Assembly: GCA_039000165.1 (NCBI GenBank)
Contig: JAWBTW010000002.1
Location: 3,245 to 67,244, forward strand
DNA: 64,000 nt
Direction: 5' to 3'
From: Candidatus Aenigmatarchaeota archaeon
GTDB lineage: Archaea > Aenigmatarchaeota > Aenigmatarchaeia > CG10238-14 > SCSR01
The notes beneath the pieces were generated by a model. It saw only the letters and a list, made by a program, of their open reading frames with translations. It had not been told where the DNA came from and ran no database searches. Within the stretch, counting starts at the first letter, position 1; each line of letters begins with the position of its first letter. Shown here piece by piece: positions 43,472 to 58,611 of the stretch. The translations under genes were made by a program, and so were the position numbers.

Positions 43472-43612
43472 ACTGTAGATTTGCTTTTCAAAAATAAAAA
43501 TTTTAAAAATTTGTTACAAGTTTGCGTCGTAAGAATTTTAAAGTAAAAGGAAGTTAACCTTAAAAAAAGAAAGATTTTAATACATTTTTTTTAAAATTAT
43601 TTTAGGGAGAAA

Positions 43613-44134
43613 ATGTCGATAAGAAGTACTTTTTACGAGGAATTAGTAAGATACGGAATAGATCCTTTAGAAGTGGTTAAAATCGAGTTTAAGAAAAGTA
43701 GGAAAGGAACTAAAGTAGTTGTTCATACAACGAACAAACCGATTAATATATCCGACCCCTATTTTGTAACGCTAGCTAAAGCGACAGCCTTACAAGTTCC
43801 GTTAGAAAAACTTTTTTCCAGGGATTACTTACTTAAAAGGCTTTACGGAATAATCACCGTTTTTGAAGGAAAGGAAATGCCGTTTTCTGAATTTCTCCTT
43901 TTGAACGCAAAGGTATCAACAGAAGAAATAGCCAAAAGGTTGGAAGAGTTAGAAAGAAAGTATTCCGTGGATAAGCATTTGAAAGATTACAAGGAAGGGT
44001 TGAAAATAAGAATTTATAAAAAATTAGCCTTAACTTGCGGTATATCCTTTAGAGATTTCGAAAAAGATAACGAAGACAGCACTACTGAAAACCTGATAGA
44101 TGTTTTAGCCCATTACTATTATCAAAGCACGTAA
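43613..44134 (+). CDS. hypothetical protein
   Basis: ORF. No motif. Confidence 0.3.
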   Translation: MSIRSTFYEELVRYGIDPLEVVKIEFKKSRKGTKVVVHTTNKPINISDPYFVTLAKATALQVPLEKLFSRDYLLKRLYGIITVFEGKEMPFSEFLLLNAKVSTEEIAKRLEELERKYSVDKHLKDYKEGLKIRIYKKLALTCGISFRDFEKDNEDSTTENLIDVLAHYYYQST

Positions 44135-44997
44135 GACAAATAATCCAAGAAACCGCTAAGCTTAAGGATTTCTTCGATATAATTTTTAAAATTCTCTCTT
44201 TCGGCCCTTATTTTCAAGGAATTCCCCACACTTAGAAGTTCTCTGTATGTTCTTTTCATCAAAGACTCTTCTATTTTCTTTTTTTGGCCGTTTGAGGCAA
44301 GCACTATTCTTTTTATTCCCTCTTCTGGAATCTCGTTCAATAAAATTTGCTTTGTTTCTTTATTTCTTAGAAGTTTTTGTAAGATTGAAGGATCGTTATA
44401 AGAGTCAATAACGCAGAAAGTTAGGAAACCAAGCTCCTCACTAGAATTTGGAGAATACTTAAATTCCCAAGCCTTTGTGAAAGTTATCAAAGCTTCTTTA
44501 AAACTTTTAACCAAATTCTTCATTTGCTCGTTGTTAACAAAGTACCAATACCTGAGAAGGTTTGCTCCGTTCCTGTAATCAAGGTAGGTTTTAACTCGAG
44601 AAAGGCTGTCGCTTACTTCAATCCATTCCTGAGGCAGAAAAATTAACTTGTTTTCCCTTTGATTTTTGATGCTTGGAATCGTTTCGTAAATCATTTTCTT
44701 TACTGGTTGAAGAAAGTTTTCATATAAGTTATGCATTACAAAAAGTTCTTTTTGCATTGCTGGAATCTCTGTTACAAGTTGGGATGTTAGTTCTTCCAAC
44801 TTTTTGAACTGAGTTGAAATGCTTTCGTACAAGGGTAAAGAGACTTCATAGCCTCTATCTTCGCTTAGGTAAGCGTCAAGCCATGTTCTGTCCCAAAAAA
44901 CATCCAAAGAAGAAATTATCTGGTAAAAGCTTCTTTCATCTTCCAAGTATTTCTCCAGCAAACCCCAATTTTCAAACTTTATTTTTTCTTCTTTCAT
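44122..44997 (-). CDS. hypothetical protein
   Basis: ORF. No motif. Confidence 0.3.
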   Translation of the reverse strand: MKEEKIKFENWGLLEKYLEDERSFYQIISSLDVFWDRTWLDAYLSEDRGYEVSLPLYESISTQFKKLEELTSQLVTEIPAMQKELFVMHNLYENFLQPVKKMIYETIPSIKNQRENKLIFLPQEWIEVSDSLSRVKTYLDYRNGANLLRYWYFVNNEQMKNLVKSFKEALITFTKAWEFKYSPNSSEELGFLTFCVIDSYNDPSILQKLLRNKETKQILLNEIPEEGIKRIVLASNGQKKKIEESLMKRTYRELLSVGNSLKIRAERENFKNYIEEILKLSGFLDYLSYVL

Positions 44998-45092
44998 TCT
45001 TTAACCTTTTTTAAAATGAAAAAGATAACTCTTTTTTAACTTATATAAGGAAGTAAGTTTTTTAAAAGTTTCTGTTTGCTGACTTTTTTTAA

Positions 45093-45108
45093 TGTTAGAC
45101 GTCTAACA
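45093..45108. repeat. 16-bp perfect palindrome TGTTAGACGTCTAACA, copy 1
   Basis: Exact copy. Sits in the divergent intergenic region between genes 44122(-) and 45194(+). Confidence 0.9.
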
Positions 45109-45193
45109 GAAAAGCAGCCAACAAACATTTCATAGATTTTTTTGGAATATTCCATACATAACTTATAAATACTTTATGGAATATCCTTAAATT

Positions 45194-45490
45194 ATGGAAA
45201 AAACCTTTGAAGAAATGCTTGAAAGCGTAAGAGTAAAGAAAGTCTCTCAACTTACAGCAAAAGTTTTTGAAATTATTCATTCTAGATGGCCCACAAATCC
45301 GCTAGAAGTTGCTGAGATTTTAGGAGATAAAGGAAAAGAGAAAACGCTTTCTGCAAAGTACCTTTACCATTTTCGCAAGCTTAAGGAAATGGGGTTAATA
45401 GACATGAAAAAAGTTGGAAACACTTACATAGCATGGCCTACTGAGATTGAAAAGCTTAGGGTTGTGCATGAATTATTAAAAGGGTTGTGA
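45194..45490 (+). CDS. small winged-helix protein (putative regulator)
   Basis: 98 aa with a wHTH-like pattern. First gene after palindrome copy 1. Confidence 0.4.
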   Translation: MEKTFEEMLESVRVKKVSQLTAKVFEIIHSRWPTNPLEVAEILGDKGKEKTLSAKYLYHFRKLKEMGLIDMKKVGNTYIAWPTEIEKLRVVHELLKGL

Positions 45491-45499
45491 GGTGAGAGA

Positions 45500-46036
45500 A
45501 TGGGGATAGCTGTTATGTTGAAAAAACTTTTGCTTGGAAGGGCTTTTTCTGCTGAAGAAGGAAGGGTTACGATTTTGGGAAGATATAACGTAACTTTAGT
45601 GGAAAGTTGTGGATTTGCGTATCTTCATCAGAAAATATTTGAAGAACTTGGAGAAAAAAAGGCTTTTAAAATTTTAATGGAAGCTACAGAAATTGCAATC
45701 GAAAACGCAACAAAAGCATTTGGACTAGTACCTTTTTTTATGAGCATAGAAAAACTTTTACCTTTAACAGATTTTTATGGATTAGGGAAATTTAGCGTAA
45801 TTCACAAAGAAGAAAATGAAAAAAAAGTTGTATTGTTAATTAAAGTTGAAAATTCTCCACTTACAGAATATGCCAAACAAAAATGGGGAAAGAATTCAAA
45901 AATATGTAAAATAGTAGAAGCAAATTTAATTGTGACGGCTAAACTTATCTACAAAAAAACACCAAAAGTAGAGGAAATTTCCTGCTACACTAAAGGTGCT
46001 CCTTATTGTACATTTCGTGTAGAAATAGAAAAGTGA
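45500..46036 (+). CDS. V4R-domain (small-molecule binding) protein
   Basis: About 178 aa with a C-terminal CYTKGAPYCTFRVE Cys pair typical of V4R domains. Confidence 0.45.
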   Translation: MGIAVMLKKLLLGRAFSAEEGRVTILGRYNVTLVESCGFAYLHQKIFEELGEKKAFKILMEATEIAIENATKAFGLVPFFMSIEKLLPLTDFYGLGKFSVIHKEENEKKVVLLIKVENSPLTEYAKQKWGKNSKICKIVEANLIVTAKLIYKKTPKVEEISCYTKGAPYCTFRVEIEK

Positions 46037-46041
46037 TTTCT

Positions 46042-47493
46042 ATGATTGAAAAAATAGCATCTTGGTATGTTAAAAGAAAAAGAAATGAAATAGCAAAAAA
46101 AGTGAGAAAAGCAATGCTTTCCATTCCATTCTACAAACAACAAATTAAAAAAAATTCAATCGATTTACATGAAGTAAGAGAAATCAACTCAATAGAAAAA
46201 CTTGATAAATTTCTTCAAAAACATAAAATAAATTGGTTAGAATCTACCGAACTAATGAGAAATGATTTTTCTTCTCATTTAAGTCTCGCTCCTACAAATA
46301 AAAGAATATGGGTGCAAGTATCTTCTGGCTATAGTTTGGTAGAAAAATTGAGAAGTGGAGAAAATTTTTTAGAAAGTGTACAAAAATTTAAAAGAAAAAA
46401 AGTAGCCTTTACTCAAAAAGATTTAGAACTTGTGATAAAAGAAGTTTATCTACGTGGGGCTAAAAGAATAGCCTCAAATGATTCGATACCAACTATTTCT
46501 ATTTTTTCCAGAATGTATATTTATGGTGGTTCAGGAACATATCCTTTTGCAGCTCTTGTAAGAGTATCACAGAAGTTTCCTTTAAGAATTTTACCCTACG
46601 GTGAACCGTTAAGCCAGGAACAACTTTGTGATTATGTACTTGATTCCGTAGAGAATAACACTAACTGGATAATCACTACACCATCAATTTTAAGCGACAT
46701 AGGTAGATTTATGGTAGAAAATAATCTAAGGTACAGGAATCTAAGGTATGTAGGTATGGGTGGATTTAAACCAAGTAAAGAAGTTGTAAATCTAGGACAT
46801 GAAATAGGAGCTAAAATAATTATAGACGCTTACAGTGTTCAAGAATGTATGCCACTCGGTTGTATAGCCTCTGGAACTATATCAAGTGAAGACAAAAATT
46901 GGGAAACTAATGAAGGATTAATGGTTATGGGAAATTTGTGTCATGTAAGAGTAGTCGATAAAAATGGGGAAAACGTTAGTGAAGGTGAAGAAGGAGAAAT
47001 AAGAATAACTTCACCCTTTGAAGGAACGTTTTTAATTGACTATGCTCCTGGTGATATCGGTAAACTTTTAAGTTATACTTCTAGTGTCAGTTTAGATAGT
47101 TCTAGGGTAAATCTTCCTTTTCCTTTACTTTCCTATGACATAAGAAGAAAAGAAGAAAATGAATATGTAAAGATAAAAGAGTATCCAGTTTCTGTTGGCA
47201 TTCTAAAAGAAATCTTAACATCTTATGTTGATTATAATTTTGCGATTTGCAAGCCACAAACAAAGGGAGAACTGCTAATATTAATTCCAAGTAATATTGA
47301 AGAGAGAAATTATGAAGAAATGTGTAAAAAGATAAGATATACAGTTTGCCCTTTACGATATAGCCTCCTTAGATTCAAAAAAATAGACGAGAGTAAACTT
47401 AAAAAAATTGTTTTCCCAAGTTTACACCACAAGCCACACAATCTTATCCTCTCGCCCTCAAAAGAACTAGAAAGTGAGCTCTATGCCAGCTAG
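46042..47493 (+). CDS. divergent adenylate-forming enzyme (PaaK/F390-synthetase/LuxE-like ANL superfamily), tentative
   Basis: SSG.. P-loop remnant (VQVSSGYS), YAPGDIG (Y.TGD-like) and GEIRITSP. The start is chosen at ATG 46042 after the V4R stop; the ORF track starts at 46006. Confidence 0.4.
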   Translation: MIEKIASWYVKRKRNEIAKKVRKAMLSIPFYKQQIKKNSIDLHEVREINSIEKLDKFLQKHKINWLESTELMRNDFSSHLSLAPTNKRIWVQVSSGYSLVEKLRSGENFLESVQKFKRKKVAFTQKDLELVIKEVYLRGAKRIASNDSIPTISIFSRMYIYGGSGTYPFAALVRVSQKFPLRILPYGEPLSQEQLCDYVLDSVENNTNWIITTPSILSDIGRFMVENNLRYRNLRYVGMGGFKPSKEVVNLGHEIGAKIIIDAYSVQECMPLGCIASGTISSEDKNWETNEGLMVMGNLCHVRVVDKNGENVSEGEEGEIRITSPFEGTFLIDYAPGDIGKLLSYTSSVSLDSSRVNLPFPLLSYDIRRKEENEYVKIKEYPVSVGILKEILTSYVDYNFAICKPQTKGELLILIPSNIEERNYEEMCKKIRYTVCPLRYSLLRFKKIDESKLKKIVFPSLHHKPHNLILSPSKELESELYAS

Positions 47494-48187
47494 CTTAACT
47501 GATTTGCTCTGGGAAATCTATCCATTTTTTTACGACTCCCTAAACAACTTTGCTCCATACAAAAAAATGATAAGAGATACTGCTGAAAGCTTAAACTTTA
47601 GTAAAGGGAAGAAATTTCTTGACGTTGGTTGCGGAACAGGAAATTTGATTCAATATCTAGTTAAAAATTCTAAGGAAATCGAGGTTTGGGGTATAGATGC
47701 TTCAGAGCAAGCGCTTAAAATTGCCTCAAAAAAAATTAAAAATTCAAACGCTAACGTCAAGCTTTGCCAGTACTATTTTGAAGAAAAGCTTCCTTTTAAT
47801 GATAACTACTTTGACGGAATCGCTGCTGTTAACTTTATAAACTACTTAAGCCCAAGCTCTTTACAAAATTTTGTAAGGGAAGCGAGGAGAATTTTAAGAA
47901 AGGGGGGAAGGCTAAGCTTAGTCTACACAAGCGAAGTAGAATACTTTAAGGGAAAAAGCGGCTTTAAGTACTCTTTAAAAGAAAAACCGAAACAAACGAT
48001 TTTATCCCTTCCTTTCTGCGTGGCTGTTGGCTTGATGAACATTCCCATGAAATTAAAAGTCAACCTTATCCCTTATTCTAAAACTTATGTAGAAAAACTT
48101 CTTGAGGAAAACAACCTCAAGATCCTTAACACAAAAACAACTTATTATTCTCATAGTACCTTGCTAACAACTAGCGAAAAAATTTAA
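47474..48187 (+). CDS. class I SAM-dependent methyltransferase
   Basis: Motif I LDVGCGTGNL. Motif post-I and II spacing is typical. Confidence 0.75.
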   Translation: MSSMPASLTDLLWEIYPFFYDSLNNFAPYKKMIRDTAESLNFSKGKKFLDVGCGTGNLIQYLVKNSKEIEVWGIDASEQALKIASKKIKNSNANVKLCQYYFEEKLPFNDNYFDGIAAVNFINYLSPSSLQNFVREARRILRKGGRLSLVYTSEVEYFKGKSGFKYSLKEKPKQTILSLPFCVAVGLMNIPMKLKVNLIPYSKTYVEKLLEENNLKILNTKTTYYSHSTLLTTSEKI

Positions 48188-48194
48188 AAAACTT

Positions 48195-48827
48195 TTGGAA
48201 TATTCCAATTTATCTTTTAACAAACAAATTAATTATATGTTTGAACCTCCAAAAGGTTATGAAAAATATTGCGAACCAACTTTTTTGTGCGAATCTAACC
48301 TGCCAGAAATAAAAGAGCTAGCCCAAGCTTTAGCAAAAGATAAAAAAACTCCTGAAGAAGCTGCTAGAGCATTTTTTTATTGGGTAAGGGATAATGTTGC
48401 TTGGAAAGTAGAAGAGATAGTTGGTGCTAAGGAAACGCTAAAAAGAAACCCTATGCATGGAGTATGTGCAGATAAAGCTAATCTCTTCATAGCTCTTTGC
48501 AGAGCTGTTGGAATTCCTGCAAGGTATCTTTTAATATTTAGATGTCAGCTTAACGCTAAGGTAAAGGATTTTCCAAAAAAAGTTGGGCATGTAGCTGCTA
48601 AAGTTTACTTAAACAATGAATGGAAAGTTGTAGATCCAACTTTTGGAAAGGATACGGAAAAGCTAATTCCTTTAAGTGAGTTTGACAGACCAAGCTGGAA
48701 AAGAATTGCTGGAGTCTTGAGAGTAAGAGAGCTTTCTGTTTCCTTAGCTTTATTTTCCATGCTTATTCTAAGGTTTAGTCGCTCTAGCCTAAAGATGAAA
48801 GAATTGATAGAAAGTTTGAGAAAATGA
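48195..48827 (+). CDS. transglutaminase-like cysteine protease-fold protein
   Basis: GVCADKANLFIALCRAVGIPARYL has the catalytic Cys context. Downstream GHVAAKVYL...WKVVDPT supplies His and Asp. Confidence 0.6.
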   Translation: MEYSNLSFNKQINYMFEPPKGYEKYCEPTFLCESNLPEIKELAQALAKDKKTPEEAARAFFYWVRDNVAWKVEEIVGAKETLKRNPMHGVCADKANLFIALCRAVGIPARYLLIFRCQLNAKVKDFPKKVGHVAAKVYLNNEWKVVDPTFGKDTEKLIPLSEFDRPSWKRIAGVLRVRELSVSLALFSMLILRFSRSSLKMKELIESLRK

Positions 48828-48839
48828 AAAGGTTGTTAA

Positions 48840-48855
48840 TGTTAGACGTCTAACA
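48840..48855. repeat. 16-bp perfect palindrome TGTTAGACGTCTAACA, copy 2
   Basis: Exact copy, 13 bp after the transglutaminase-like gene stop. Confidence 0.9.
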
Positions 48856-48990
48856 ATTTCTAAACTAACCACTTCCACAAAGGTTTGAAAACAATTTTTT
48901 TGTTTTCTATTTTTAATTGATCTTCATAATCCCAGGTTATCACTAGCAAATCCTTGCATTTAAGCAAGGAGGATGCTTTAAAATTGTTAA
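48856..48990 (-). pseudogene. 5'-truncated 3'-terminal fragment of a COG1373/DUF4143 AAA ATPase paralogue
   Basis: Reverse strand translates in frame to KASSLLKCKDLLVITWDYEDQLKIENKKIVFKPLWKWLV*. This matches the C-terminus of gene 50356-51639 (KASKELKCKDLLVITWDYEGQQKIKNKKIVFKPLWKWLLVDFF*). About 85% nt identity over roughly 110 bp. Confidence 0.6.
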
Positions 48991-48999
48991 ATGTCTAAC
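48984..48999. repeat. degenerate copy (13/16) of the TGTTAGACGTCTAACA palindrome
   Basis: TGTTAAATGTCTAACG, 12 bp downstream of the serS stop. Confidence 0.5.
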
Positions 49000-49010
49000 G
49001 TATAAAAAAC

Positions 49011-50291
49011 TCATTCACCCAAAACCTCAATTCCGTTCATGTAAGGAACCAAAACTTTTGGAATTTTCACGCTCCCGTCTTTTTGCTGGAAGTGTTCGAG
49101 AATGGCTAGCATGGTCCTGCTTGTCGCTAAGGCAGTAGAGTTTAAAGTATGGACAAAACCTTTTGGTTTTTCTCCTTCCTTTTCTCTAAACCTAATGTTA
49201 AGCCTTCTTGCTTGGTAATCTGTGCAATTAGAGTTTGAGCCTATTTCCCTAAACTTTCCGTCAACCATCCAAACCTCTGTATCGTACTTTTTTGCCGCTA
49301 CTGTTCCTATATCTCCTGTGCAAACGTTTACTACACGGTAATGCAAACCTAAAGCTTGATAGAGCTCCTCACAATTTCTTTGCAGCTCTTCGTGCAAATC
49401 CCAGGAATCTTCTGGCAAGCAAAAAATGAATTGCTCAACCTTGTTAAACTGATGCATCCTGAAAAATCCTTTCGTGTATTTTCCGTGCGTACCTATTTCT
49501 TTTCTAAAACATGGACTTATTCCAACAAACTTCAAAGGCAAGTCTTTTTTATTTAAAATTTCATTCATGAACATTGCTCCTATAGGATGCTCAGAAGTTG
49601 CTATCAAGTATAAATCTTCATTCTCTATTTTGTAAGTTACCATTTCAAAATCGCTTGGGTCTATCATTCCTTCGTAAGCTTTTCTGTTTATCATGAAAGG
49701 AGGCTCTACAGGAATATAGCCTTTTTTAATCATAAAATCTAGAGCAAACTTTTGAATGGCTAGATCGAGCAAAACCAATTCTTTTTTTAAGTAGAAAAAG
49801 CCTGCCCCAGCAACTTTTGCTGCCCTTTCTTGATCTACCAAACCCAACTCTAAAGCAATTTCTAGATGATTTTTTGGTTTAAAGTTAAACTTTGGTGGGG
49901 AACCAACTCTTCTTATTTCAACATTATCGTTTTCATCTTTACCAAAAGGTACAGAATCGTGCAAAATGTTCGGTAGCTTGAGCAAAATATCCCTTACTTC
50001 TTTTTCCAGTCTGCTCGACTCTTCTTCCATTCTTTTTATTTCGTCATGGATTTTCTTAGCTTCGTTTAAGATTTTGCTTGTATCCTTGTTTTCTTTCTTC
50101 AACCTTGAAATTTCTAAAGTAAGTTTGTTCCTTCTGTTTCTCAGCTTGTTTATTTCTGTTTTGAGGCCACGCAATTTCTTGTCAAGCTCTAAAAGCCTTT
50201 CGAACATTTTCAATTTTTCCGGGTCTTGCCTCTTTTCCAAATTTTTCCTTACAAACTCTGGCCTCTCTCTTATCAATTTAATGTCAAGCAT
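49011..50291 (-). CDS. serS: seryl-tRNA synthetase
   Basis: N-terminal coiled-coil arm (MLDIKLIRERPEFVRKNLEKR...), class II motifs FRKE and GSNSNCTDYQARRLNIRF. 426 aa. Confidence 0.9.
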   Translation of the reverse strand: MLDIKLIRERPEFVRKNLEKRQDPEKLKMFERLLELDKKLRGLKTEINKLRNRRNKLTLEISRLKKENKDTSKILNEAKKIHDEIKRMEEESSRLEKEVRDILLKLPNILHDSVPFGKDENDNVEIRRVGSPPKFNFKPKNHLEIALELGLVDQERAAKVAGAGFFYLKKELVLLDLAIQKFALDFMIKKGYIPVEPPFMINRKAYEGMIDPSDFEMVTYKIENEDLYLIATSEHPIGAMFMNEILNKKDLPLKFVGISPCFRKEIGTHGKYTKGFFRMHQFNKVEQFIFCLPEDSWDLHEELQRNCEELYQALGLHYRVVNVCTGDIGTVAAKKYDTEVWMVDGKFREIGSNSNCTDYQARRLNIRFREKEGEKPKGFVHTLNSTALATSRTMLAILEHFQQKDGSVKIPKVLVPYMNGIEVLGE

Positions 50292-50339
50292 GTTTTTACC
50301 TTAATTTCAATTAATTAAAGGTTGCTCAAATATTTTCTT

Positions 50340-50355
50340 TGTTAGACGTCTAACA
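50340..50355. repeat. 16-bp perfect palindrome TGTTAGACGTCTAACA, copy 3
   Basis: Exact copy. Abuts the AAA ATPase stop codon and lies 49 bp upstream of the serS start. Confidence 0.9.
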
Positions 50356-51639
50356 TTAAAAAAAGTCAACCAATAACCATTTCCACAAAGGCTTAAAAAC
50401 AATTTTTTTGTTTTTTATCTTTTGTTGACCTTCATAATCCCAGGTTATCACTAGCAAATCTTTACATTTAAGTTCTTTGCTTGCCTTTATTAAAGACCTA
50501 ATTTCCCTTTTCTCAACCTCATCTTTACTAGAAGCATAAGTAACTTGAATTAGTTGATTGATTTTTAAACCTTTTTTCACGGCAAAATCTACCTCAAAAT
50601 CGTTCGATTTGAAGTAAAAAATTTCATCAACTTTTCCTTCAAACTTTTTTCTCAAAAGAGAAATAGCTACCAAGTTTTCCATTTTTTTCCCAAAATCTTT
50701 TGAAAACCTTGGTTCAATCGCAAAGTAAACATTATCTACCAAATAAATCTTTGCAGGATACTTTGCTCTTTCTCTGTACTTTAAAGAAAATCTTTTTATC
50801 GGAAAAACAAACAAAGCCTCTTCCACATACCTCAAATAATTCGCTAAGGTTTTTTTGCTAACTTTCAAGCCGATCGATTTCAATTCTTTTTCAATTTTTG
50901 TTAATGAGATATAGGAGGAAGAGTTTGCTATGCAATACCTAACAAAATAATCCATAAGTGTAACATTTTTTATTTTAAACCTTTCTATCAAATCCTTAAA
51001 AAATACGGTAGTAAAATAGGTTCTTGCTATTTCAATTTTCTTGTTTTTCTCGTCAGCAAGAAGAATTTCAGGATACCCTCCAAAATCAAGAAATTCTTTC
51101 AAAAGCATTAAAATTTCACCAACCTTTGCCTTAGAAATTTCTTCCCTAACTACAAACTTTTTTAGCTTAAGAAACTCTTTAAAGGTAAAAGGAAAAATTA
51201 TATAAGGAATACACCTTCCCCTTAGCTCGGTTGAAATCTCTCTGCTTAAAAGTTTTGAAGAAGAACCAGAAATTATTATTTTATATTTTTGGAAATTGTG
51301 CAAAGTTCTAACGAACGAAGGCCATTCTTCTAACTCTTGAATTTCGTCCAAGAAAAGAAAAACTTGATTTTTAAACAGTGAATTTACTTCCTTTAAAAAC
51401 TCAGAAACACCAATTTTTCTTACTCTTGGGTCGGTAAAATCTATGTAAACAACATTATCTTTGGAATTATTCTTTTCAAAGAGCTCTTTTATTAGCTGGA
51501 ACATAAAATAGGTTTTACCAGCTCTTCTTGGTCCTATAAGGGAAACTATGTGCTTGTTTATCCATACCTTTAAATCTCTCTCGATTATATCTTGCGGTAG
51601 TTCTTTCTCTTTCCACTCTAGTAAAACCTCTCTTAGCAT
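50356..51639 (-). CDS. AAA+ ATPase, COG1373/DUF4143 family
   Basis: Walker A GPRRAGKT, Walker B FLDEIQ, C-terminal DUF4143-like region. 427 aa. Confidence 0.75.
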   Translation of the reverse strand: MLREVLLEWKEKELPQDIIERDLKVWINKHIVSLIGPRRAGKTYFMFQLIKELFEKNNSKDNVVYIDFTDPRVRKIGVSEFLKEVNSLFKNQVFLFLDEIQELEEWPSFVRTLHNFQKYKIIISGSSSKLLSREISTELRGRCIPYIIFPFTFKEFLKLKKFVVREEISKAKVGEILMLLKEFLDFGGYPEILLADEKNKKIEIARTYFTTVFFKDLIERFKIKNVTLMDYFVRYCIANSSSYISLTKIEKELKSIGLKVSKKTLANYLRYVEEALFVFPIKRFSLKYRERAKYPAKIYLVDNVYFAIEPRFSKDFGKKMENLVAISLLRKKFEGKVDEIFYFKSNDFEVDFAVKKGLKINQLIQVTYASSKDEVEKREIRSLIKASKELKCKDLLVITWDYEGQQKIKNKKIVFKPLWKWLLVDFF

Positions 51640-51709
51640 AAAAGAAATATAGGAAACAAAAATATATATTTTTTGTTTCCCTTAGGGAAATTTTAGAAAG
51701 TTGGTTTTT

Positions 51710-51725
51710 TGTTAGACGTCTAACA
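51710..51725. repeat. 16-bp perfect palindrome TGTTAGACGTCTAACA, copy 4
   Basis: Exact copy, 71 bp upstream of the AAA ATPase start codon. Confidence 0.9.
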
Positions 51726-51754
51726 CAAAAAATCCTTATTTATACTTTTAAATG

Positions 51755-51991
51755 CTAACTTTCGTTTAAATTTTCATAATTTTTATTCTCTCCAAATTTC
51801 TTTTTTCCTAATAAATAGCCTAGAATAGCTCCATAACAAAAAGCAAAATCTTTTTCTTTTCCTTCTGCTAGCTTTATTCCGAACTTTAAGCCTTTGATAA
51901 AAGAATCCAAGTATTCTTTTCCTTCTGCCTCTTCAAAAAATTTTTCCATCAAAACTTTTGTAAAATTTAAGTATCTTTTTTCTTCTTCCAC
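51755..51991 (-). CDS. hypothetical small protein
   Basis: 78-aa ORF. No motif. Confidence 0.25.
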   Translation of the reverse strand: MEEEKRYLNFTKVLMEKFFEEAEGKEYLDSFIKGLKFGIKLAEGKEKDFAFCYGAILGYLLGKKKFGENKNYENLNES

Positions 51992-52040
51992 AAAGAAAAA
52001 ATGAAAGAAAAAGTATTTAAGTACTTGAAAAAACTCAAAA

Positions 52041-52346
52041 TTATTCCATCTTTTTCCCTTCTTTATATCCTCTTAAAAGCTTCTCCATCTCTTTTTCATA
52101 TTCTTTTCTAAGCTCAGAAATCTTGCCCAAATAATCTAGCGTTAAAGACCTTATTTTTTCCTGAGCTTCGCTTCTACCTTCTAAAAACTCCCTAAACAAA
52201 GAATAAGCTATGTTACCAGCCAGAAGAGAAGAAATCAGACTTTCCCAATTCCTCACGTAATCCAAATCCTTCTTTATTTCTTCAAAACTTCTCATACTTT
52301 TAAAATAAAGAATAAATTTTAAAAAACTATTCTTTCTTAACAACAA
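52041..52346 (-). CDS. hypothetical small protein
   Basis: 101-aa ORF, overlapping the upstream KaiC-like gene end by 20 nt. Confidence 0.3.
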   Translation of the reverse strand: MLLRKNSFLKFILYFKSMRSFEEIKKDLDYVRNWESLISSLLAGNIAYSLFREFLEGRSEAQEKIRSLTLDYLGKISELRKEYEKEMEKLLRGYKEGKKME

Positions 52347-53055
52347 TTCCTTTATTAGTAATTTCTATGGGATAAATGTCAGTTCCATGCTTAGTGTGAC
52401 GCATCTTTCTTATAAGCAAGCTTCTTGGTGTTCCTCCTCCTGTAAATTCCAAATAATGCAAAACTATTACTGCATCTACTATAAATTCCTCAAAACCAAA
52501 TCTTGATAAGGCTTTTGTTGCTTCTGGTATCTCTCCAACTATCAAGCTTGTTACTCCATACTGTTTTAACCTCATTATTAGCTCGAAAACCTTTGCCCTT
52601 AGCTCAGTAGGGTCAGAAGCCTTTGCAGCAAAAGCTACCAAGCTTAAACCATCTAGAACAAAACGAGTAGCGTTTACTTCCTTTATCCTCTTAAAAATTT
52701 CATAATCCAAATCATCACAAGATTTAGGAAAAACATACTCTATTATACATCTTCCTTGTTGAATGTAAGGCCTGAAGTCCATCCCAAACTGCAAAGCTTG
52801 CGAGATTATATCTTCTGCTGGCTCTTCCAAGGTTATGTAAACTACATTTTCACCCTTTTGCAAGCCATGCCAAATGTATTGAGTACAAAAAATCGTTTTT
52901 CCTGTTCCTGTTTCTCCTGCTATCAAAACTGCTGAGCCTTTAACAAAACCTCCTTCTATTAGTCTATCCAAACCAGGAATTCCTGTTTCTACCCTTTCAG
53001 GTTTTCCTTCCTCTTTTGGTTTTTCAGAAACTTTTTTCATCTTTTTCTTCATCAA
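52327..53055 (-). CDS. KaiC-like RecA-superfamily ATPase (second copy)
   Basis: GIPGLDRLIEGGFVKGSAVLIAGETGTGKT Walker A plus a KaiC-like core. 242 aa. Confidence 0.75.
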   Translation of the reverse strand: MMKKKMKKVSEKPKEEGKPERVETGIPGLDRLIEGGFVKGSAVLIAGETGTGKTIFCTQYIWHGLQKGENVVYITLEEPAEDIISQALQFGMDFRPYIQQGRCIIEYVFPKSCDDLDYEIFKRIKEVNATRFVLDGLSLVAFAAKASDPTELRAKVFELIMRLKQYGVTSLIVGEIPEATKALSRFGFEEFIVDAVIVLHYLEFTGGGTPRSLLIRKMRHTKHGTDIYPIEITNKGIVVKKE

Positions 53056-54685: not shown

Positions 54686-55594
54686 TTATACCTCCAGGCT
54701 TGGCCTCCTAACTTTTATCAAACCAATAAACATGAATTGGAAGATTATCAAGAATCCCAAAATTAGGTATAGGAAAATGTCTAAGGGCAGGAATGAAAGA
54801 CCAAAGAAAGAAGAAAGAATTATTATGAAAGTTATTCCTAGAGTTGGAATAATAACTGCAGTCATCAAATACATCAAAGCCATAGGATTAAGCTGAGCTC
54901 CATACCTTCTAATCTCAATTCTCTGGTCTATTGCTAAGCCATTAACTATTTCTCTTAAAGTTGTTGCTATGTCTGAGCCAGCTCTCATTCCATTAACTAG
55001 TTGCCAAATAACCCTTCTAAAGTAGAGAGAAGGATTCCTAAAAGACATGTTTTCCAAAGCTTCTATCTCAGAAACTCCTGCGTTTATTTCCTTTACTGCT
55101 TCTTCAAATTCTTCTGAAACCAAACCATAATCTCCTGCAGCAACAGAAACCATAGCGTTAAAAAGAGTAACTCCTGACCTAACTTGAATCAGCAAATGCC
55201 TTAAAGCATAGAGCAAATCTCTTTCCAAAAGCCTTATTTTCTTAATCAAGAGCATTTTTGGGTAAAGAATTACGTAATAAAAAACAAAGAAAGTTATTCC
55301 TATATCTAGGGAAAGCATGGTAACAAGATAAGTTGGAGTAAAGGCAGCTAAAGGATTTAAAGGATTAGAAATTATCCCCAAGAAAATTGTTATGAAAATC
55401 ATTAGAGCAAAATAAAAAAATGCGGTAAAAATTGCTAAGGCAATGTATTCCCTAGGGTTCAAATCAACCTTTGCTTGTTTAAGCTCATAACTTAAAGAAG
55501 GAAAAAGCTTTGCCATCTCTTTGCTTACTCCAAAAAACTTCCTTGCATAATTCAAAGCTACTTCTGTTTTGAAAGGAAGTAGGGGAATCCTCAA
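54686..55594 (-). CDS. TadB/FlaJ-like pilus assembly membrane protein (T2SSF domain), N-terminal half-equivalent
   Basis: T2SSF-like domain plus TM helices. Start overlaps the ATPase stop by 4 nt. Confidence 0.65.
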   Translation of the reverse strand: MRIPLLPFKTEVALNYARKFFGVSKEMAKLFPSLSYELKQAKVDLNPREYIALAIFTAFFYFALMIFITIFLGIISNPLNPLAAFTPTYLVTMLSLDIGITFFVFYYVILYPKMLLIKKIRLLERDLLYALRHLLIQVRSGVTLFNAMVSVAAGDYGLVSEEFEEAVKEINAGVSEIEALENMSFRNPSLYFRRVIWQLVNGMRAGSDIATTLREIVNGLAIDQRIEIRRYGAQLNPMALMYLMTAVIIPTLGITFIIILSSFFGLSFLPLDIFLYLILGFLIIFQFMFIGLIKVRRPSLEV

Positions 55595-58500
55595 GTTTTC
55601 AACTCCTTCATCAAATCTCCTAACAATCTCTCTGGACTAATATTAGCTTTTATTGCACTTATTATTTTTTCTGGTTCAGAATAATACTCAGAAATAACAA
55701 AACCAACAGTATTGACAGTATTAATATTGTGCCTAACTAACCAATCAAGAACCATTTGCCTTTGAGCAAGCTCTTGAGCTATTTCTTGATCTGTCATTCC
55801 TGTGTAAAGCCTTAAGTCGTCCATTATTCTCATGCTTGTCTTGAAAGGAATAATTTCATCCTTATCTGCTCTCCACCTAAACAAAGTGTTAAGCTGAACT
55901 CCTCTTTCACTTGGAATAATTTCAGAAACTTGAAAAACTCTCCTTATTCCTTTTCTTCTGTCTCTGTGCATTGCTAGTATAATATGCAAAGCTTCTAAGA
56001 GCATTTCTGGCACGTTTATCGGTGGATTAACTAATCTTCTAACAGTTTGCTCTGCAGTGTCTGCATGCAAGGTTGAATAAACTGAATGACCAGTGTGCAT
56101 AGCTTCGAACAAAACTTCTGCTTCCCTTGCCCTTCTTATTTCTCCTACTATTATTCTGTCTGGCCTCATTCTCAAAGCGTTTACCATTAAATCTAACATA
56201 GAAACTTCTCCCTTTCCTTCAGGGTTCGGCTCTCTTGTTGTTAGAGGGACCCAGTGCAAGAAATCTGGCAACTGAATTTCTCTTGTGTTGTGCGCTATTA
56301 TATTGTTACAAACAAAACTTTCATTTCCTGGAACACTTATATCATAAACATAACCTTCAAACTCTCTTTCCTTTATTTCCTTTACTCTATCCCAAAAGAT
56401 GTCGTTACTAGCTAACTTTATTAAAATTTCATTTCCACCATCGTTTGCAATCTTACTCACAATTTCTTTCAACAATTCTCTCCCTATGTTAGATTTCATG
56501 TAATTTCTGTGCCAAGATTTCCATCCCTTATAACTTCTTTTTACTCCAACCTCTTCTTTTAACAATTTTTTAAGTCTGAGATAAAAGTGCTTTGGCAAAG
56601 GAACTACATCAGAAACATCATGGACTTTTTTATGCAACAAACTAAAAAGTTTTTCGTTGTTTTTCTCTTGCAAAAATCCAACTTCATAAAAGAAAGTTTT
56701 TAAAAATTTTGAACCAGAGATTGTTGCTTGATAAGTATTATCCTTAAACTTTTTTCCTATTCTTAAAGGAATTCCAAACCTTAGCAAAAGTGTTTGAATA
56801 TCTTTTAGAAGATTGAATGAAACAGAAGAAACTGCAACATCCTTTGACCTTACCCAACCATCTCCTGAAAAGTATCCTTTTAAAAATGCTGCTAGCTCTT
56901 CTTTTTCCAGACCAAAAACCCAACTTGGAACTCTTTTAGTATAGACATTTCCTTCTAACCCTAAAACTTCTTTGAAAAATGTTTTAAACAGTTTTGAATT
57001 AAGCATCAAGGAAATTTTATCACTATGCAATTTACAACCCATTCTAAACCTTTTTGCAATTTTCCTAATAATTTTTTTACTTTCCTCATCAGTAACAGAA
57101 AAAATAACAGAATTTCTATCGTAACAGCCATCTGCAAGCCAAAGCCCAGCTACTAATGCTAAATCTTTATTTACGCTAACTTTTAAAGGTAAGAAAGAAC
57201 CGCTTCTAGATTTTATTTTTCCTTTTCTTGGTTTAACGTTTAGCTTCTGCAGCACTTCAGCTTTCAAAACTCCTTTTTTTAAGTAATAGTAAGCTTGTTG
57301 CTTTGATAAAAGTTTTGATTCTACCAGCTTTTTAAAGTTTTTTCTAATAAATTCTTTGTCCACTTCAACAAAACATCCTTTGAATTTCTCAAGCTCTAAG
57401 GAAAGGTCAAAAACTTTCTTTTTTCCTTCATAAGGGAGTATTCTTGGTACTGCAATAAAACTTCCAACTTTTATTTCTTTTCCAGGAATTGGCACTATTT
57501 CACCGTTTTCGTTCAAACCAAAAAGAGAATGATCTTCTGTAACTGAAATCTTTCTTCCGCTAGCTAAAATTATATCTAAAACTTTCTTTTTTACTTTATG
57601 CCTAATAAAGTGGGAAGGTAGAGCAAGCTTAATTTTTCCATCTTTATCCATGGAAAAAATTTTTATGTTATCTTTGTTTTCAACTTTTTCTTCACCATCG
57701 GGGAGTAAAGAATCTATTAGTTCGCCAATAGCCTTTCTAAAGATTTCTCCTTTCCTTTCAAAAAGGATTTCACAATCGCCAGTGACGCTATCCTCTATCG
57801 AAACAATTCTATGGTTTGGTGGAATGAAAGTTGTTAAAACGTTCAGAATAGAAGTTTTTCCTGTTGCAGTCCCCCCAGAAACTATTATGTTCATTTCATA
57901 ATGAATGGCAAGCCAAAGCAAGGAAGCTACCTCTTTGTTTATTGTATTGTTTCTTATCAAGTCAGTTATCGTCCAAGGTTTTCTCGCAAATTTTCTTATC
58001 GTAATAGTATTTCCTTTTGTTGAAATCGGGAATAAAGTTGCGTTAACTCTGTCTCCTGTTGTTAGGTGCGCATCCATCAAAGGGTTTAAACTAGTTATTT
58101 GCCTTCCAACTTTCCTTCCTATCATGCTTGCATAGTTGTAAATTTCCAAATCACTTTTTATTACTATGTTAGTCTTAAGCCAACCATACTTTTTATGATA
58201 AACCCACAAAGGCTCTTGAGAATTGTTTATAACTATTTCTTCCAGATTTTCATCCTTAAGCAAAACTTCAACTTTTCCCAAGCCTAGCATCTCATGAACT
58301 AAAGTACCTGCCAAAATTCTTTTTTCTTCCTCAGAAATTCTTGGTAATTGTCTTTGAATTAGTTCTAAAGCCTTGTTGAAAAACCTTTGCTTCAAATCTT
58401 CCATCACTCTTGGGTCAAGAATTTCCTGAACTTTCACTCCAACTTCAGTTATTAACCTTTCCCTTATAGCAGATAAAACTGCTAGGGTTGCTTCCTCAAA

Positions 58501-58611
58501 CTTTGGTAAAGAAACTTCATAAATGGGAACAAATTCACCTTCTATTTTAACTATGTTAACCTCTGCAGGCACACCTTCTGCAACAAGCTTATAGCTATCC
58601 AATATTCTCAT
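55591..58611 (-). CDS. type IV pilus/archaellum-type secretion ATPase (TadA/FlaI/KlbA-like) containing an intein
   Basis: Walker A GGTATGKTS. Extein Asp box RIVSIED|TREIQLP is interrupted. Walker B DRIIVGEIR and a His box are present. The 505-aa extein is normal for the family. Confidence 0.85.
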   Translation of the reverse strand: MRILDSYKLVAEGVPAEVNIVKIEGEFVPIYEVSLPKFEEATLAVLSAIRERLITEVGVKVQEILDPRVMEDLKQRFFNKALELIQRQLPRISEEEKRILAGTLVHEMLGLGKVEVLLKDENLEEIVINNSQEPLWVYHKKYGWLKTNIVIKSDLEIYNYASMIGRKVGRQITSLNPLMDAHLTTGDRVNATLFPISTKGNTITIRKFARKPWTITDLIRNNTINKEVASLLWLAIHYEMNIIVSGGTATGKTSILNVLTTFIPPNHRIVSIEDSVTGDCEILFERKGEIFRKAIGELIDSLLPDGEEKVENKDNIKIFSMDKDGKIKLALPSHFIRHKVKKKVLDIILASGRKISVTEDHSLFGLNENGEIVPIPGKEIKVGSFIAVPRILPYEGKKKVFDLSLELEKFKGCFVEVDKEFIRKNFKKLVESKLLSKQQAYYYLKKGVLKAEVLQKLNVKPRKGKIKSRSGSFLPLKVSVNKDLALVAGLWLADGCYDRNSVIFSVTDEESKKIIRKIAKRFRMGCKLHSDKISLMLNSKLFKTFFKEVLGLEGNVYTKRVPSWVFGLEKEELAAFLKGYFSGDGWVRSKDVAVSSVSFNLLKDIQTLLLRFGIPLRIGKKFKDNTYQATISGSKFLKTFFYEVGFLQEKNNEKLFSLLHKKVHDVSDVVPLPKHFYLRLKKLLKEEVGVKRSYKGWKSWHRNYMKSNIGRELLKEIVSKIANDGGNEILIKLASNDIFWDRVKEIKEREFEGYVYDISVPGNESFVCNNIIAHNTREIQLPDFLHWVPLTTREPNPEGKGEVSMLDLMVNALRMRPDRIIVGEIRRAREAEVLFEAMHTGHSVYSTLHADTAEQTVRRLVNPPINVPEMLLEALHIILAMHRDRRKGIRRVFQVSEIIPSERGVQLNTLFRWRADKDEIIPFKTSMRIMDDLRLYTGMTDQEIAQELAQRQMVLDWLVRHNINTVNTVGFVISEYYSEPEKIISAIKANISPERLLGDLMKELKT
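56287..57789 (-). mobile_element. intein (501 aa) with LAGLIDADG homing-endonuclease domain in the secretion ATPase
   Basis: Block A SVTGDCEIL (Ser1), block B TEDH, two LAGLIDADG motifs (LVAGLWLADGCY, LAAFLKGYFSGDGWV), C-terminal ...IIAHN followed by +1 Thr. Inserted at the conserved IED|T site. Confidence 0.8.

What the first reader, a model, noticed from the sequence alone, without database searches (positions are those of the whole stretch)
48840..50475. serS is flanked by direct repeats comprising the palindrome plus the 3' end of a COG1373 AAA ATPase gene
The segment 48840-48975 repeats 50340-50475 at about 85% identity.
- The upstream copy is an in-frame but 5'-truncated fragment encoding the last roughly 40 aa of the ATPase paralogue. 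The downstream copy is the intact gene's 3' end.
- serS therefore sits between roughly 135-bp direct repeats.
- This implies that serS (with its promoter) was inserted by, or is excisable through, recombination at these repeats. That is unusual for an essential aminoacyl-tRNA synthetase and hints at cassette-like gene shuffling in this region.
Basis: seen in the sequence. Interest (0 to 1): 0.55.

Follow-up and report, generated by a model that had tools for sequence, protein, structure and literature searches.

The report
Stranded ATPase gene tail beside serS
The repeat on both sides of the seryl-tRNA synthetase gene is real, but it is best explained as the leftover tail of a third copy of a fast-turnover, defence-candidate ATPase gene plus a 16-bp palindrome found beside many promoters in this archaeal group, not as the signature of a mobile serS cassette.

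Summary
Window 48840-48979 repeats 50340-50475: an exact 16-nt palindrome, an 8-nt indel, then a 99-nt core at 90% identity. The upstream copy encodes 39 in-frame residues, 85% identical to ATPase residues 385-423.

- **Organism:** a Candidatus Aenigmatarchaeota genome.
- **The ATPase:** an AAA_14/DUF4143 protein that matches the PADLOC candidate defence family PDC-S01. Its tandem paralogues are about 50% identical in DNA, except for the last ~90 codons. Those are kept 80-96% alike, third codon positions included, which points to gene conversion.
- **Close relatives:** a relative has two ATPases before serS, and the window has lost one by recombination in this 3' module. Three near-identical strains carry three different ATPase ends.
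- **The palindrome:** present in at least 8 Aenigmatarchaeota species (17 copies in one 802-kb scaffold). It typically lies 30-59 nt upstream of start codons of housekeeping genes such as TFB and TyrRS/TrpRS, and 48 nt upstream of serS.
- **serS position:** fixed in five close assemblies. No serS-less allele, integrase or second copy was found.
- **Wider lineage:** serS lies elsewhere in relatives at 83%, 77% and 75% identity, and one close relative keeps a serS 5' remnant at another palindrome. This lineage therefore did relocate serS.

The parts
51710..51725 (.). Exact 16-nt palindrome TGTTAGACGTCTAACA, 70 nt upstream of the ATPase start codon.
   Evidence: The same position is occupied in L021 and L004.
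50356..51639 (-). Intact AAA_14 + DUF4143 ATPase (427 aa), PADLOC candidate defence family PDC-S01. Its last ~75 nt are a mosaic of A1-type and A2-type sequence.
   Evidence: Pfam hits AAA_14 (1e-34) and DUF4143 (2e-15), with a weak Mrr_cat hit. PADLOC PDC-S01, E 6e-101. End alignment.
50374..50472 (-). Downstream copy of the repeat core, which is the 3' module of the intact ATPase gene.
50340..50355 (.). Exact palindrome that abuts the ATPase stop codon and lies 48 nt upstream of the serS ATG. It is the likely upstream promoter element of serS.
   Evidence: The 30-59 nt class is enriched.
50292..50339 (-). serS promoter region with a TATA-like TTTAATTAATT about 20-30 nt upstream of the ATG.
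   Evidence: Read from the sequence. It is homologous to the serS remnant promoter in L057.
49011..50291 (-). serS, encoding seryl-tRNA synthetase (426 aa).
   Evidence: Pfam Seryl_tRNA_N + tRNA-synt_2b. TIGR00414, E 1e-153.
48985..49000 (.). Degenerate palindrome TGTTAAATGTCTAACG (3 mismatches), 10 nt after the serS stop codon and preceded by a T6 run. The orthologous site has 1 mismatch in L004 and is exact in the 83% lineage.
48863..48979 (-). 5'-truncated ATPase remnant of 39 codons plus a stop codon, with no start codon. This is the upstream copy of the repeat.
   Evidence: tblastn E 9e-15, translation, and 98% identity to the orthologous fragment in L004 over the 96-nt core.
48840..48855 (.). 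Exact palindrome after the ATPase remnant, 12 nt after the stop codon of the convergent transglutaminase-like gene.
45072..45108 (+). Exact palindrome (45093-45108), 85 nt upstream of the 98-aa wHTH-like gene. It is preceded by a ~20-nt remnant resembling the gamma-type ATPase end (..GCTGACTTTTTTTAA). Synteny with relatives breaks here.

Best explanation
serS sits inside a small hot spot where genes of one ATPase family are born, recombined and lost. The family is AAA_14/DUF4143, PADLOC candidate defence gene PDC-S01.

1. **Shown: gene conversion of the ATPase tail.** Tandem paralogues of this ATPase differ throughout, except in their last ~90 codons. Gene conversion keeps those nearly identical.
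2. **Mostly shown: ancestral layout.** The local layout was g78 - pal - A1 - pal - A2 - pal - serS - pal - A3 - pal. It is seen in relative L004 with A1 and A2 intact. That A3 was once a full gene is inferred.
3. **Inferred: truncation of A3.** A3 lost its promoter and roughly its first 377-384 codons, possibly by a deletion between its upstream palindrome and a palindrome-like stretch in the coding sequence. This left a stranded 3' module directly behind a decaying palindrome. That module, together with the 3' end of the intact upstream ATPase, forms the direct repeat around serS.
4. **Shown: continuing recombination.** In the window lineage A1 x A2 recombination removed A2, and the extreme 3' ends have been swapped between the ATPase and the fragment in sister strains.
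5. **Inferred: why serS persists.** A crossover between the two copies flanking serS would delete an apparently single-copy essential gene, so that product is not seen.
6. **The palindrome.** It is a separate, lineage-wide intergenic element placed just upstream of promoters. Position and conservation are shown. The function is inferred to be a transcription-factor operator or upstream promoter element, with its T-run possibly doubling as a terminator. The copy at 50340 serves serS.
7. **serS relocation.** serS reached this locus by an older intragenomic relocation or duplication in this sub-lineage. The changed synteny and a decayed second copy in a close relative are shown. The mechanism is unknown.
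For: - **Repeat and remnant:**
- **ATPase family:** Pfam and PADLOC PDC-S01, E 6e-101. DUF4143 is classed as PD-(D/E)XK in PMC3424549. PDC-S01 is described as an unvalidated ATPase + PD-(D/E)XK candidate with multiple transfers in PMC12988326.
- **Tandem arrays in relatives:** L002 has three ATPases, and L003 and L004 have two.
- **Gene conversion:** for A1 vs A2, nucleotide identity is 0.47-0.56 and third-position identity 0.35-0.53 over codons 1-320. Over codons 321-400 these rise to 0.79-0.85 and 0.68-0.78. The palindrome-free genome L002 shows the same pattern. All six 96-nt cores are 90-100% identical.
- **A2 loss:** L004 1-8273 matches window 58603-50339, and L004 9696-15260 matches window 50596-45093. 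The window ATPase carries A2-type diagnostic bases and the A2-type end LLVDFF*.
- **Swapped ends:** contig L001 is 99.96% identical to the window up to position 50375, then carries the end type that L004 has on its fragment.
- **Other ATPase wrecks:**
  - L053 has internally deleted A1 and A2 remnants with the palindromes retained.
  - L002 has KPLWKW..stop remnants.
- **Stability of the layout:** it is the same in L006, L004, L021, L098 and L005.
- **Palindrome distribution:**
  - 85 stretches in GTDB species genomes, about 60 of them in at least 8 Aenigmatarchaeota or uncultured-archaeon MAGs.
  - The flanks are not conserved.
  - In 52 of 128 sites the nearest start codon lies 30-59 nt away, against 17% of random intergenic positions (p 2e-9).
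  - Orthologous targets include TFB, TyrRS/TrpRS, Cbf5 and rubrerythrin.
Against: - No genome with an intact A3 downstream of serS was found, so the claim that the fragment is a truncated third paralogue is inferred.
- The fragment's first ~20 nt resemble A2 rather than A1. It could therefore equally be the displaced original 3' end of A2, with an insertion carrying a replacement end.
- Homology between genomes repeatedly ends exactly at a palindrome edge. Examples are window vs L004 and L057 at 45093 and window vs L146 at 48985.
- A 57-nt perfect repeat centred on a palindrome flanks serS plus a truncated methyltransferase gene in L097. These points leave room for an active role of the palindrome in rearrangement.
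- Five of the 17 exact palindromes of an 802-kb scaffold lie in this 10-kb locus (Poisson p 3e-6).
- The function of the palindrome was not tested.
Confidence: 0.6

Rival explanations
1. First reader's model. serS with its promoter is a cassette that was inserted by, and can be excised through, recombination between the ~135-bp direct repeats.
For: - Direct repeats flank exactly one gene plus its promoter.
- The repeats do recombine.
- The serS location differs in relatives at 83%, 77% and 75% identity.
- A serS 5' remnant with the same promoter type lies at another palindrome in L057.
- Contig L001 joins an ATPase body to the fragment-type end.
Against: - The repeat is the homogenised tail of ATPase paralogues and exists without serS in other genomes.
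- The arrangement is fixed in five close assemblies, and no deletion junction was found.
- L001 ends 33 nt after the divergence point, which is what a contig stopping at a repeat branch point would look like.
- Excision would delete the only serS copy seen.
- No recombinase gene was found.
Confidence: 0.13
2. Integration into the 3' end of an ATPase gene. A segment carrying a replacement ATPase tail, a palindrome, serS and a palindrome recombined into the last ~50 codons of A2. This displaced the original tail, as integrative elements do at tRNA genes.
For: - The fragment's 5'-most ~20 nt resemble A2 rather than A1.
- The palindrome directly abuts the fragment at about codon 378. At that point the ATPase coding sequence has a palindrome-like stretch, TTAGGTCTTTAA.
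- A gamma-type tail plus palindrome also occurs as a solo remnant at 45072-45108.
Against: - There is no integrase.
- The cargo is a single housekeeping gene.
- The two copies are 90% identical, not identical, in the window.
- No empty site was found.
- The same data fit simple truncation of a third paralogue.
Confidence: 0.08
3. The palindrome is an active recombination site that bounds gene-sized modules. It might be cut by the adjacent ATPase-nuclease or by a Holliday-junction resolvase acting on an extruded cruciform. serS and the ATPase tails would then be moved or truncated by palindrome-centred events.
For: - The palindrome at 45093 has three different left flanks in three close genomes.
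- A 57-nt perfect repeat around the palindrome flanks serS in L097.
- Palindromes stand at every gene boundary of the locus.
- ATPase genes or their remnants lie next to palindromes in at least 5 species.
- The weak extended symmetry T7-A-pal-T-A7 would favour a cruciform.
Against: - Breakpoints must fall in short intergenic spacers. They must also spare the promoter element of the next gene, which alone would place them at the palindrome edge.
- Most palindromes are single, dispersed and conserved at orthologous promoters of housekeeping genes.
- The A1 x A2 crossover lies in coding DNA, not in the palindrome.
- ATPase arrays, remnants and tail homogenisation also occur in genomes without the palindrome.
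Confidence: 0.08
4. Assembly artefact: the repeat or the placement of serS results from a mis-join in a metagenome assembly.
For: - The short contigs L001 and L005 end inside the repeat.
Against: - At least five independent assemblies have the same order, including an 802-kb and a 475-kb scaffold.
- The two copies differ at 10% of positions and by an indel, so they would not collapse in assembly.
Confidence: 0.01

Closest known systems
Birth-and-death turnover of tandem paralogues in defence islands, by unequal crossing-over and gene conversion that leave pseudogene remnants
   Same: - Tandem copies of a candidate defence gene (PDC-S01).
- Presence or absence varies between strains.
- A recombinant (chimeric) allele.
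- Truncated remnants.
- Locally homogenised sequence, synonymous sites included.
   Different: - An essential housekeeping gene (serS) is embedded between the paralogues.
- Homogenisation is confined to the last ~90 codons.
- The defence function of the family has not been validated.
att-site duplication by integrative elements that target the 3' end of a gene, for example tRNA-gene integration by archaeal and bacterial integrases (from my own knowledge)
   Same: The direct repeats consist of a gene's 3' end: one copy completes an intact gene and the other is a stranded fragment.
   Different: - No integrase.
- The cargo is one gene.
- The repeats are 90% identical rather than identical.
- No empty site is known.
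Integron gene cassettes separated by attC sites (from my own knowledge)
   Same: - Palindromic sites stand at each gene boundary of a same-orientation array.
- The letters GTTAGAC and GTCTAAC fit the attC core consensus GTTRRRY and RYYYAAC.
   Different: - The site is a 16-nt perfect palindrome, not a 57-141-nt imperfect one.
- The two cores are adjacent and in the opposite order.
- There is no IntI.
- The genes have their own promoters.
- Sites are dispersed genome-wide at promoters.
REP/BIME-type intergenic palindromes of bacteria (from my own knowledge)
   Same: A short palindrome, confined to intergenic DNA, present in many copies per genome and associated with rearrangement junctions.
   Different: - Only about 10-20 copies per genome.
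- The exact sequence is conserved across species.
- It keeps a fixed distance to start codons.
- No RAYT-type transposase was seen.
Archaeal transcription-factor operators placed next to BRE/TATA, such as the TGM motif of TrmB-family regulators or the SurR site (from my own knowledge)
   Same: A dyad-symmetric site at a constrained distance upstream of many genes, conserved at orthologous promoters.
   Different: - The sequence is unrelated to the described motifs.
- The binding protein is unknown.
- Some copies lie between convergent genes.

Membership tests
Pseudogene remnant of a tandem paralogue family (unequal crossing-over / gene conversion) | The fragment is homologous to a paralogue, truncated, and lacks a start codon and promoter. 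| tested here: met
   39 codons, 85% identical to residues 385-423, with no start codon.
Pseudogene remnant of a tandem paralogue family (unequal crossing-over / gene conversion) | Tandem paralogues and copy-number differences occur in relatives, with a chimeric junction allele. | tested here: met
   L004 has A1 + A2, and the window has one chimeric ATPase. L002 has three copies.
Pseudogene remnant of a tandem paralogue family (unequal crossing-over / gene conversion) | Local homogenisation that includes synonymous sites. | tested here: met
   Third-position identity rises from 0.35-0.53 to 0.68-1.0 in the last ~90 codons.
Mobile gene cassette / integrative element carrying serS | A recombinase (integrase or transposase) lies in or next to the element. 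| tested here: not met
   No such Pfam family was found in the window ORFs that were tested, nor in the precomputed annotation of the flanks. Several ORFs have no hit at all.
Mobile gene cassette / integrative element carrying serS | An empty site or excised form exists in related genomes. | tested here: inconclusive
   None appears in five close assemblies. The junction pattern search found 0 matches in JGI metagenomes, but this species is not represented there. The end of L001 is ambiguous.
Mobile gene cassette / integrative element carrying serS | The cargo gene occupies different genomic contexts within the lineage. | tested here: met
   Contexts at 83%, 77% and 75% identity differ. A serS remnant lies at another site in L057.
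Integron (attC array) | An IntI tyrosine recombinase with attI and Pc lies next to the array. | tested here: not met
Integron (attC array) | attC sites are 57-141 nt, imperfectly palindromic, and ordered R''-L''...L'-R'. | tested here: not met
   The site is a 16-nt perfect palindrome with no conserved flanks beyond a T/A bias.
MITE / REP-RAYT element | A conserved element body with terminal inverted repeats and target-site duplications, or an associated RAYT gene. | tested here: not met
   Only the 16-mer is shared between sites. No transposase was found in the window. Whole genomes were not searched.
Promoter-proximal operator / upstream promoter element | The site is intergenic and keeps a constrained distance to start codons. 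| tested here: met
   52 of 128 sites lie 30-59 nt from the nearest start codon and none lies 20-29 nt away. Among controls 17% fall in the 30-59 nt class (p 2e-9).
Promoter-proximal operator / upstream promoter element | The site is conserved at orthologous promoters across species. | tested here: met
   TFB in 7 loci, TyrRS/TrpRS in 3, and other targets.
Promoter-proximal operator / upstream promoter element | A cognate DNA-binding protein exists and the site affects transcription. | not testable with these tools
   The g98 wHTH-like gene plus the V4R gene, which lie next to palindromes, are only a lead.
PDC-S01 (PADLOC candidate defence gene) | Full-length match to the family model, with ATPase + PD-(D/E)XK architecture. 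| tested here: met
   PDLC04787, E 6e-101, residues 19-423. AAA_14 + DUF4143. DUF4143 is classed as PD-(D/E)XK.
PDC-S01 (PADLOC candidate defence gene) | Anti-virus activity. | not testable with these tools
   The literature calls it unvalidated.

The most novel reading that the evidence does not exclude
In this Aenigmatarchaeota clade the 16-bp palindrome marks the boundaries of gene-sized modules. These modules are duplicated, moved and truncated by palindrome-centred recombination, possibly driven by the ATPase-nuclease genes that accumulate beside the palindromes. Even an essential gene such as serS has been relocated as a [promoter-serS-palindrome] unit. The stranded ATPase tails might also act as donors that swap the extreme C-terminus of the expressed ATPase.
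Probability: 0.1. Interest if true: 0.75.

Novelty: new member of a known kind. Interest (0 to 1): 0.35.

Why it matters
**Taken as read.** The finding suggested a mobile aminoacyl-tRNA synthetase cassette, which would be unusual. The evidence points to a more ordinary cause: scars of turnover in a multi-copy candidate defence ATPase family whose tails are kept alike by gene conversion.

**For annotation and assembly.** These repeats break MAG contigs, as seen in L001 and L005. They also leave in-frame fragments that could be mis-called as genes.

**By-products with some value.**
- A 16-bp palindrome is conserved across Aenigmatarchaeota species at promoters of TFB, aaRS and other core genes. 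I found no paper describing it. It offers a handle on transcription regulation in an uncultured DPANN group.
- There is clear evidence that serS changed position within the clade, leaving a decayed copy behind. This shows how gene order is reshuffled in these reduced genomes.

Tried and rejected
- **Exact-protein look-ups.** The window's serS and ATPase found nothing, and P0121 was not on record. Context came from near-identical cluster members instead.
- **Predicted serS-deleted junction.** The pattern was an A1-specific anchor, then PLWKW, then the transglutaminase-side flank. It had no match in JGI metagenomes, but this species appears only in NCBI and Logan sources, so the negative is weak.
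- **Palindrome in IMG/VR.** Only 5 single hits, which I judge to be about chance level, so a viral or proviral att site was rejected.
- **Rfam on 44000-53000.** No match at E <= 1.
- **Second serS copy or remnants in the window.** None.
- **Literature.** Searches on Aenigmarchaeota plus palindromic found no description of the motif.
- **Integron reading.** The GTTRRRY / RYYYAAC letters fit, but the reading was rejected on size, order, lack of IntI and genome-wide promoter placement.
- **Bidirectional intrinsic terminator.** Doubtful, because the T-run precedes rather than follows the stem on each strand. In Archaea, however, the T-run alone could still terminate transcription.
- **CRISPR repeat.** Considered because of cas2-like neighbours and a 63-nt spacing in L069. 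Rejected because the copies are irregular and stand at gene boundaries.
- **Whether L001 is a true serS deletion allele.** Could not be resolved; only 33 nt of sequence lie beyond the divergence point.


Full report
**Observation.** The repeat is real.
- The repeat finder reports 48866-48964 and 50374-50472 as a 99-nt pair at 90% identity. It also reports exact copies of TGTTAGACGTCTAACA at 48840 and 50340.
- MAFFT places one 8-nt indel between palindrome and core. blastn of the region against the window gives 133 nt at 82%, E 2.6e-33.
- On the minus strand the upstream copy reads KCKDLLVITWDYEDQLKIENKKIVFKPLWKWLV*. It has no start codon. tblastn aligns it to residues 385-423 of the neighbouring 427-aa protein at 84.6% identity, E 9e-15.
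- Within 3 mismatches the palindrome occurs five times in the 64-kb window: 45093, 48840, 48985 (3 mismatches), 50340 and 51710. All lie within 6.6 kb, against 0.27 expected.

**Genes.**
- 49011-50291(-) is a standard seryl-tRNA synthetase (Pfam; TIGR00414, E 1e-153).
- 50356-51639(-) is an AAA_14 + DUF4143 protein with a weak Mrr_cat hit.
  - It matches the PADLOC model PDC-S01 over its full length, E 6e-101.
  - DUF4143/COG1373 is classed in the PD-(D/E)XK superfamily (PMC3424549).
  - PDC-S01 is described as an unvalidated candidate defence gene, an ATPase fused to PD-(D/E)XK. It is common in Archaea and has been transferred many times (PMC12988326).
- Best protein hits place the window in Candidatus Aenigmatarchaeota.
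- Base composition shows no anomaly around serS. The nearest serS relatives are all Aenigmatarchaeota, so nothing suggests foreign origin.

**Close relatives.**
- L006 is 99.96% identical to the window and has the same layout.
- L004, L021 and L098 are about 89-95% identical in DNA, with serS 98% identical in protein. They carry the same neighbours on both sides, but with two ATPases before serS: g78 - pal - A1 - pal - 69-aa ORF - A2 (42% identical to A1) - pal - serS - pal (1 mismatch) - fragment - pal - transglutaminase.
- blastn shows that the window equals L004 minus about 1.68 kb. L004 1-8273 matches window 58603-50339, and L004 9696-15260 matches window 50596-45093.
- The end alignment shows that the window's ATPase is an A1 body with A2-type diagnostic bases (GAAGGTCAACAAAAG) and the A2-type end LLVDFF* followed by the palindrome. 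So recombination within the 3' module has removed a gene here, but that gene is an ATPase, not serS.
- Contig L001 is 99.96% identical to the window up to position 50375. It then carries ..LLEV* TTTTTTAAAAATGGTTTATT, the end type that L004 has on its fragment.
- Conversely, the window's fragment carries a shortened form of the end that L004 has on A1. Three near-identical strains thus have three ATPase ends, which indicates frequent exchange between the copies, including the two that flank serS.
- L001 stops 33 nt after the divergence point. It may be a deletion junction, or simply a contig that ends at a repeat branch point. I could not resolve this.

**Nature of the repeated module.** In a codon alignment of A1 and A2 (L004):
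- Over codons 1-320, nucleotide identity is 0.47-0.56 and third-position identity is 0.35-0.53.
- Over codons 321-400, these rise to 0.79-0.83 and 0.68-0.78.
- Two tandem paralogues in L002, a genome region without any palindrome, show the same pattern and reach 0.96 and 1.0 at the very end.
- The 96-nt cores of all six copies are 90-100% identical. The fragment is 98% identical to its orthologue in L004 and 97% identical to A1 within L004.
- The last 45 residues stay 81-95% identical in paralogues that are only 41-50% identical overall, in several species.

The repeat is therefore the gene-converted tail of this ATPase family. Other wrecks of the family exist. L053 has an A1 reduced to about 40 N-terminal codons fused to its last ~11 codons, plus an A2 5' remnant, with the palindromes retained. 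L002 has short RKPLWKW..stop remnants around a 132-aa ORF.

**The palindrome.**
- The exact 16-mer occurs in 85 stretches of the GTDB species genomes. About 60 are in Aenigmatarchaeota or uncultured-archaeon MAGs of at least 8 species. Examples are 17 copies in the 802-kb scaffold JAVZHQ010000001.1 and 9-12 copies in four other MAGs. The rest are single, chance-like hits in bacteria.
- Flanks are not conserved beyond a T-rich/A-rich bias, roughly T7-A-pal-T-A7. It is not a MITE.
- Sites are almost all intergenic. In 52 of 128 sites the nearest start codon the site faces lies 30-59 nt away, and in none 20-29 nt away. Only 17% of random intergenic positions in the same loci fall in the 30-59 nt class (Fisher p 2e-9).
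- Downstream genes recur across species: TFB (7 loci), a class I TyrRS/TrpRS (3), Cbf5, rubrerythrin, a P-type ATPase, TatD, RtcA, the 98-aa g98, and serS (48 nt in both window and L021).
- Other loci also have a palindrome at every gene boundary, for example TFB | 69-aa cas2-like | 327 aa.
- The most economical reading is an upstream promoter element or operator. The copy at 50340 belongs to the serS promoter.
- The copy behind serS no longer faces a gene, and it is decaying: 3 mismatches in the window and 1 in L004.
- Five of the 17 exact copies in the JAVZHQ scaffold lie in this 10-kb locus (Poisson p 3e-6). I attribute this mainly to duplication of ATPase tails together with the palindrome that follows them.

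**Is serS syntenic?** Only among close relatives.
- At 77% identity (L092), serS is divergent from ScpB-NFACT-Lhr and followed by peptidase A24 and ribosomal protein genes.
- At 75% identity (L093-L096), it lies between a HAD hydrolase and peptidase A24 plus the ribosomal operon. No palindrome is present in either group.
- The window has ScpB (16220-16726), NFACT and Lhr, but no serS beside them.
- At 83% identity (L146, L187, L097), serS lies in the island between the rhomboid gene and g98, upstream of a g78 homologue. An exact palindrome follows its stop codon. Homology to the window runs exactly from the serS ATG to that palindrome's outer edge.
- In L097 a 57-nt perfect direct repeat centred on the palindrome flanks serS plus a truncated methyltransferase ORF.
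- In L057, whose flanks are 98.6% identical to the window, the space between the rhomboid gene and the palindrome upstream of g98 holds an AbrB-PIN pair. It also holds a serS promoter with about 38 frameshifted codons, 84% identical to the window's serS 5' region and of the same promoter type.
- Hence serS has been duplicated or relocated within this clade and one copy has decayed.
- The palindrome at 45093 has three different left flanks in three close genomes.

**Synthesis.**
- Shown:
  - the repeat and the remnant;
  - the gene-converted ATPase tail;
  - loss of A2 by recombination in that tail;
  - swapped ends;
  - the palindrome's position and conservation;
  - the changed synteny of serS and its decayed copy.
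- Inferred:
  - the fragment derives from a third paralogue that lost its 5' part;
  - the serS-deleting crossover is counter-selected;
  - the palindrome works as a promoter element;
  - breakpoints sit at palindrome edges because rearrangements must fall in short spacers and spare the next gene's promoter element.
- I cannot exclude that the fragment is the displaced original tail of A2, or that the palindrome itself promotes breakage.
- No recombinase was found in the window. There is no Rfam family in the region and no viral link.

**Comparison and verdict.**
- The structure behaves like paralogue birth-and-death in a defence-island-like spot.
- It resembles att duplication at a gene's 3' end and an attC array only superficially, and it fails their defining tests (no integrase; site size and structure).
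serS did move in this lineage and the repeats do recombine. There is no evidence, however, that these repeats inserted serS or excise it.
- The finding itself is of modest interest. The undescribed promoter-associated palindrome and the plasticity of the locus are the more useful leads.

Noticed in passing
window 45093, 48840, 50340, 51710; loci L007-L091 and L104-L223: The exact 16-mer TGTTAGACGTCTAACA is conserved across at least 8 Aenigmatarchaeota species. It lies typically 30-59 nt upstream of start codons of TFB, TyrRS/TrpRS, Cbf5, rubrerythrin and other core genes. I found no paper describing it.
   Followed up: partly
window 45194-45490 and 45500-46036: A 98-aa winged-helix-like protein (weak Csa3 hit) and a V4R-domain protein (weak MsvR hit) form a conserved pair. 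The pair lies next to a palindrome in the window and in L004, L055, L199, L053 and L187. They are a candidate binder of the motif, but this was not tested.
   Followed up: partly
window 43472-45092; L057 527-3152; L146 288-8771: The island between the rhomboid gene and the palindrome upstream of g98 is replaced wholesale between close genomes. The window has two ORFs of unknown function (173 and 291 aa). L057 has two other ORFs, an AbrB-PIN pair and a serS remnant. The L146 lineage has about 10 genes there, including intact serS.
   Followed up: partly
window 45194-48827 vs L021/L054: Divergence from the JAVZHQ genome is mosaic. In protein identity, g98 is 100%, the methyltransferase and the transglutaminase 97%, the V4R protein 80% and the AMP-binding protein 75%. 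This suggests recombination between strains inside this operon.
   Followed up: no
L211 805-3107, L219 3291-4586, L032, L082, L090: A 69-aa cas2-like gene (MKYIIIYDIP..) between TFB and a ~325-aa gene has palindromes on both sides. In some genomes two palindromes stand 37-63 nt apart in front of it.
   Followed up: no
L130 (4 copies in 6.6 kb); L174 (4 copies in 2.7 kb) and L175: The same 16-mer is multi-copy at gene boundaries in contigs that do not look like Aenigmatarchaeota. L130 is plasmid-like, with replication-relaxation-like and TraD-like ORFs. L174 and L175 have GC 0.42-0.44 and many small phage-like ORFs.
   Followed up: no
L002 9300-13900, L003 9300-15200: A relative without the palindrome has two or three tandem PDC-S01 ATPases whose 3' ends share 228 nt at 88% identity. 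They lie next to AbiEii and nucleotidyltransferase genes in L003 and PIN genes in both, so the region looks like a defence island.
   Followed up: partly
window 55591-58611: The T2SSE/FlaI-type secretion ATPase (1006 aa) carries an intein with a LAGLIDADG domain, according to precomputed Pfam hits on the identical gene in L001 and L006.
   Followed up: no
window 19361-20191: A 276-aa protein combines an ATP-cone, an Mrr_cat restriction-endonuclease fold and an AF1548-like C-terminal domain.
   Followed up: no
L001 11266-11298 and L005 1-45 and 1425-1478: MAG and Logan contigs of this species end inside the ATPase-tail repeat, so the repeat fragments assemblies of this locus.
   Followed up: yes
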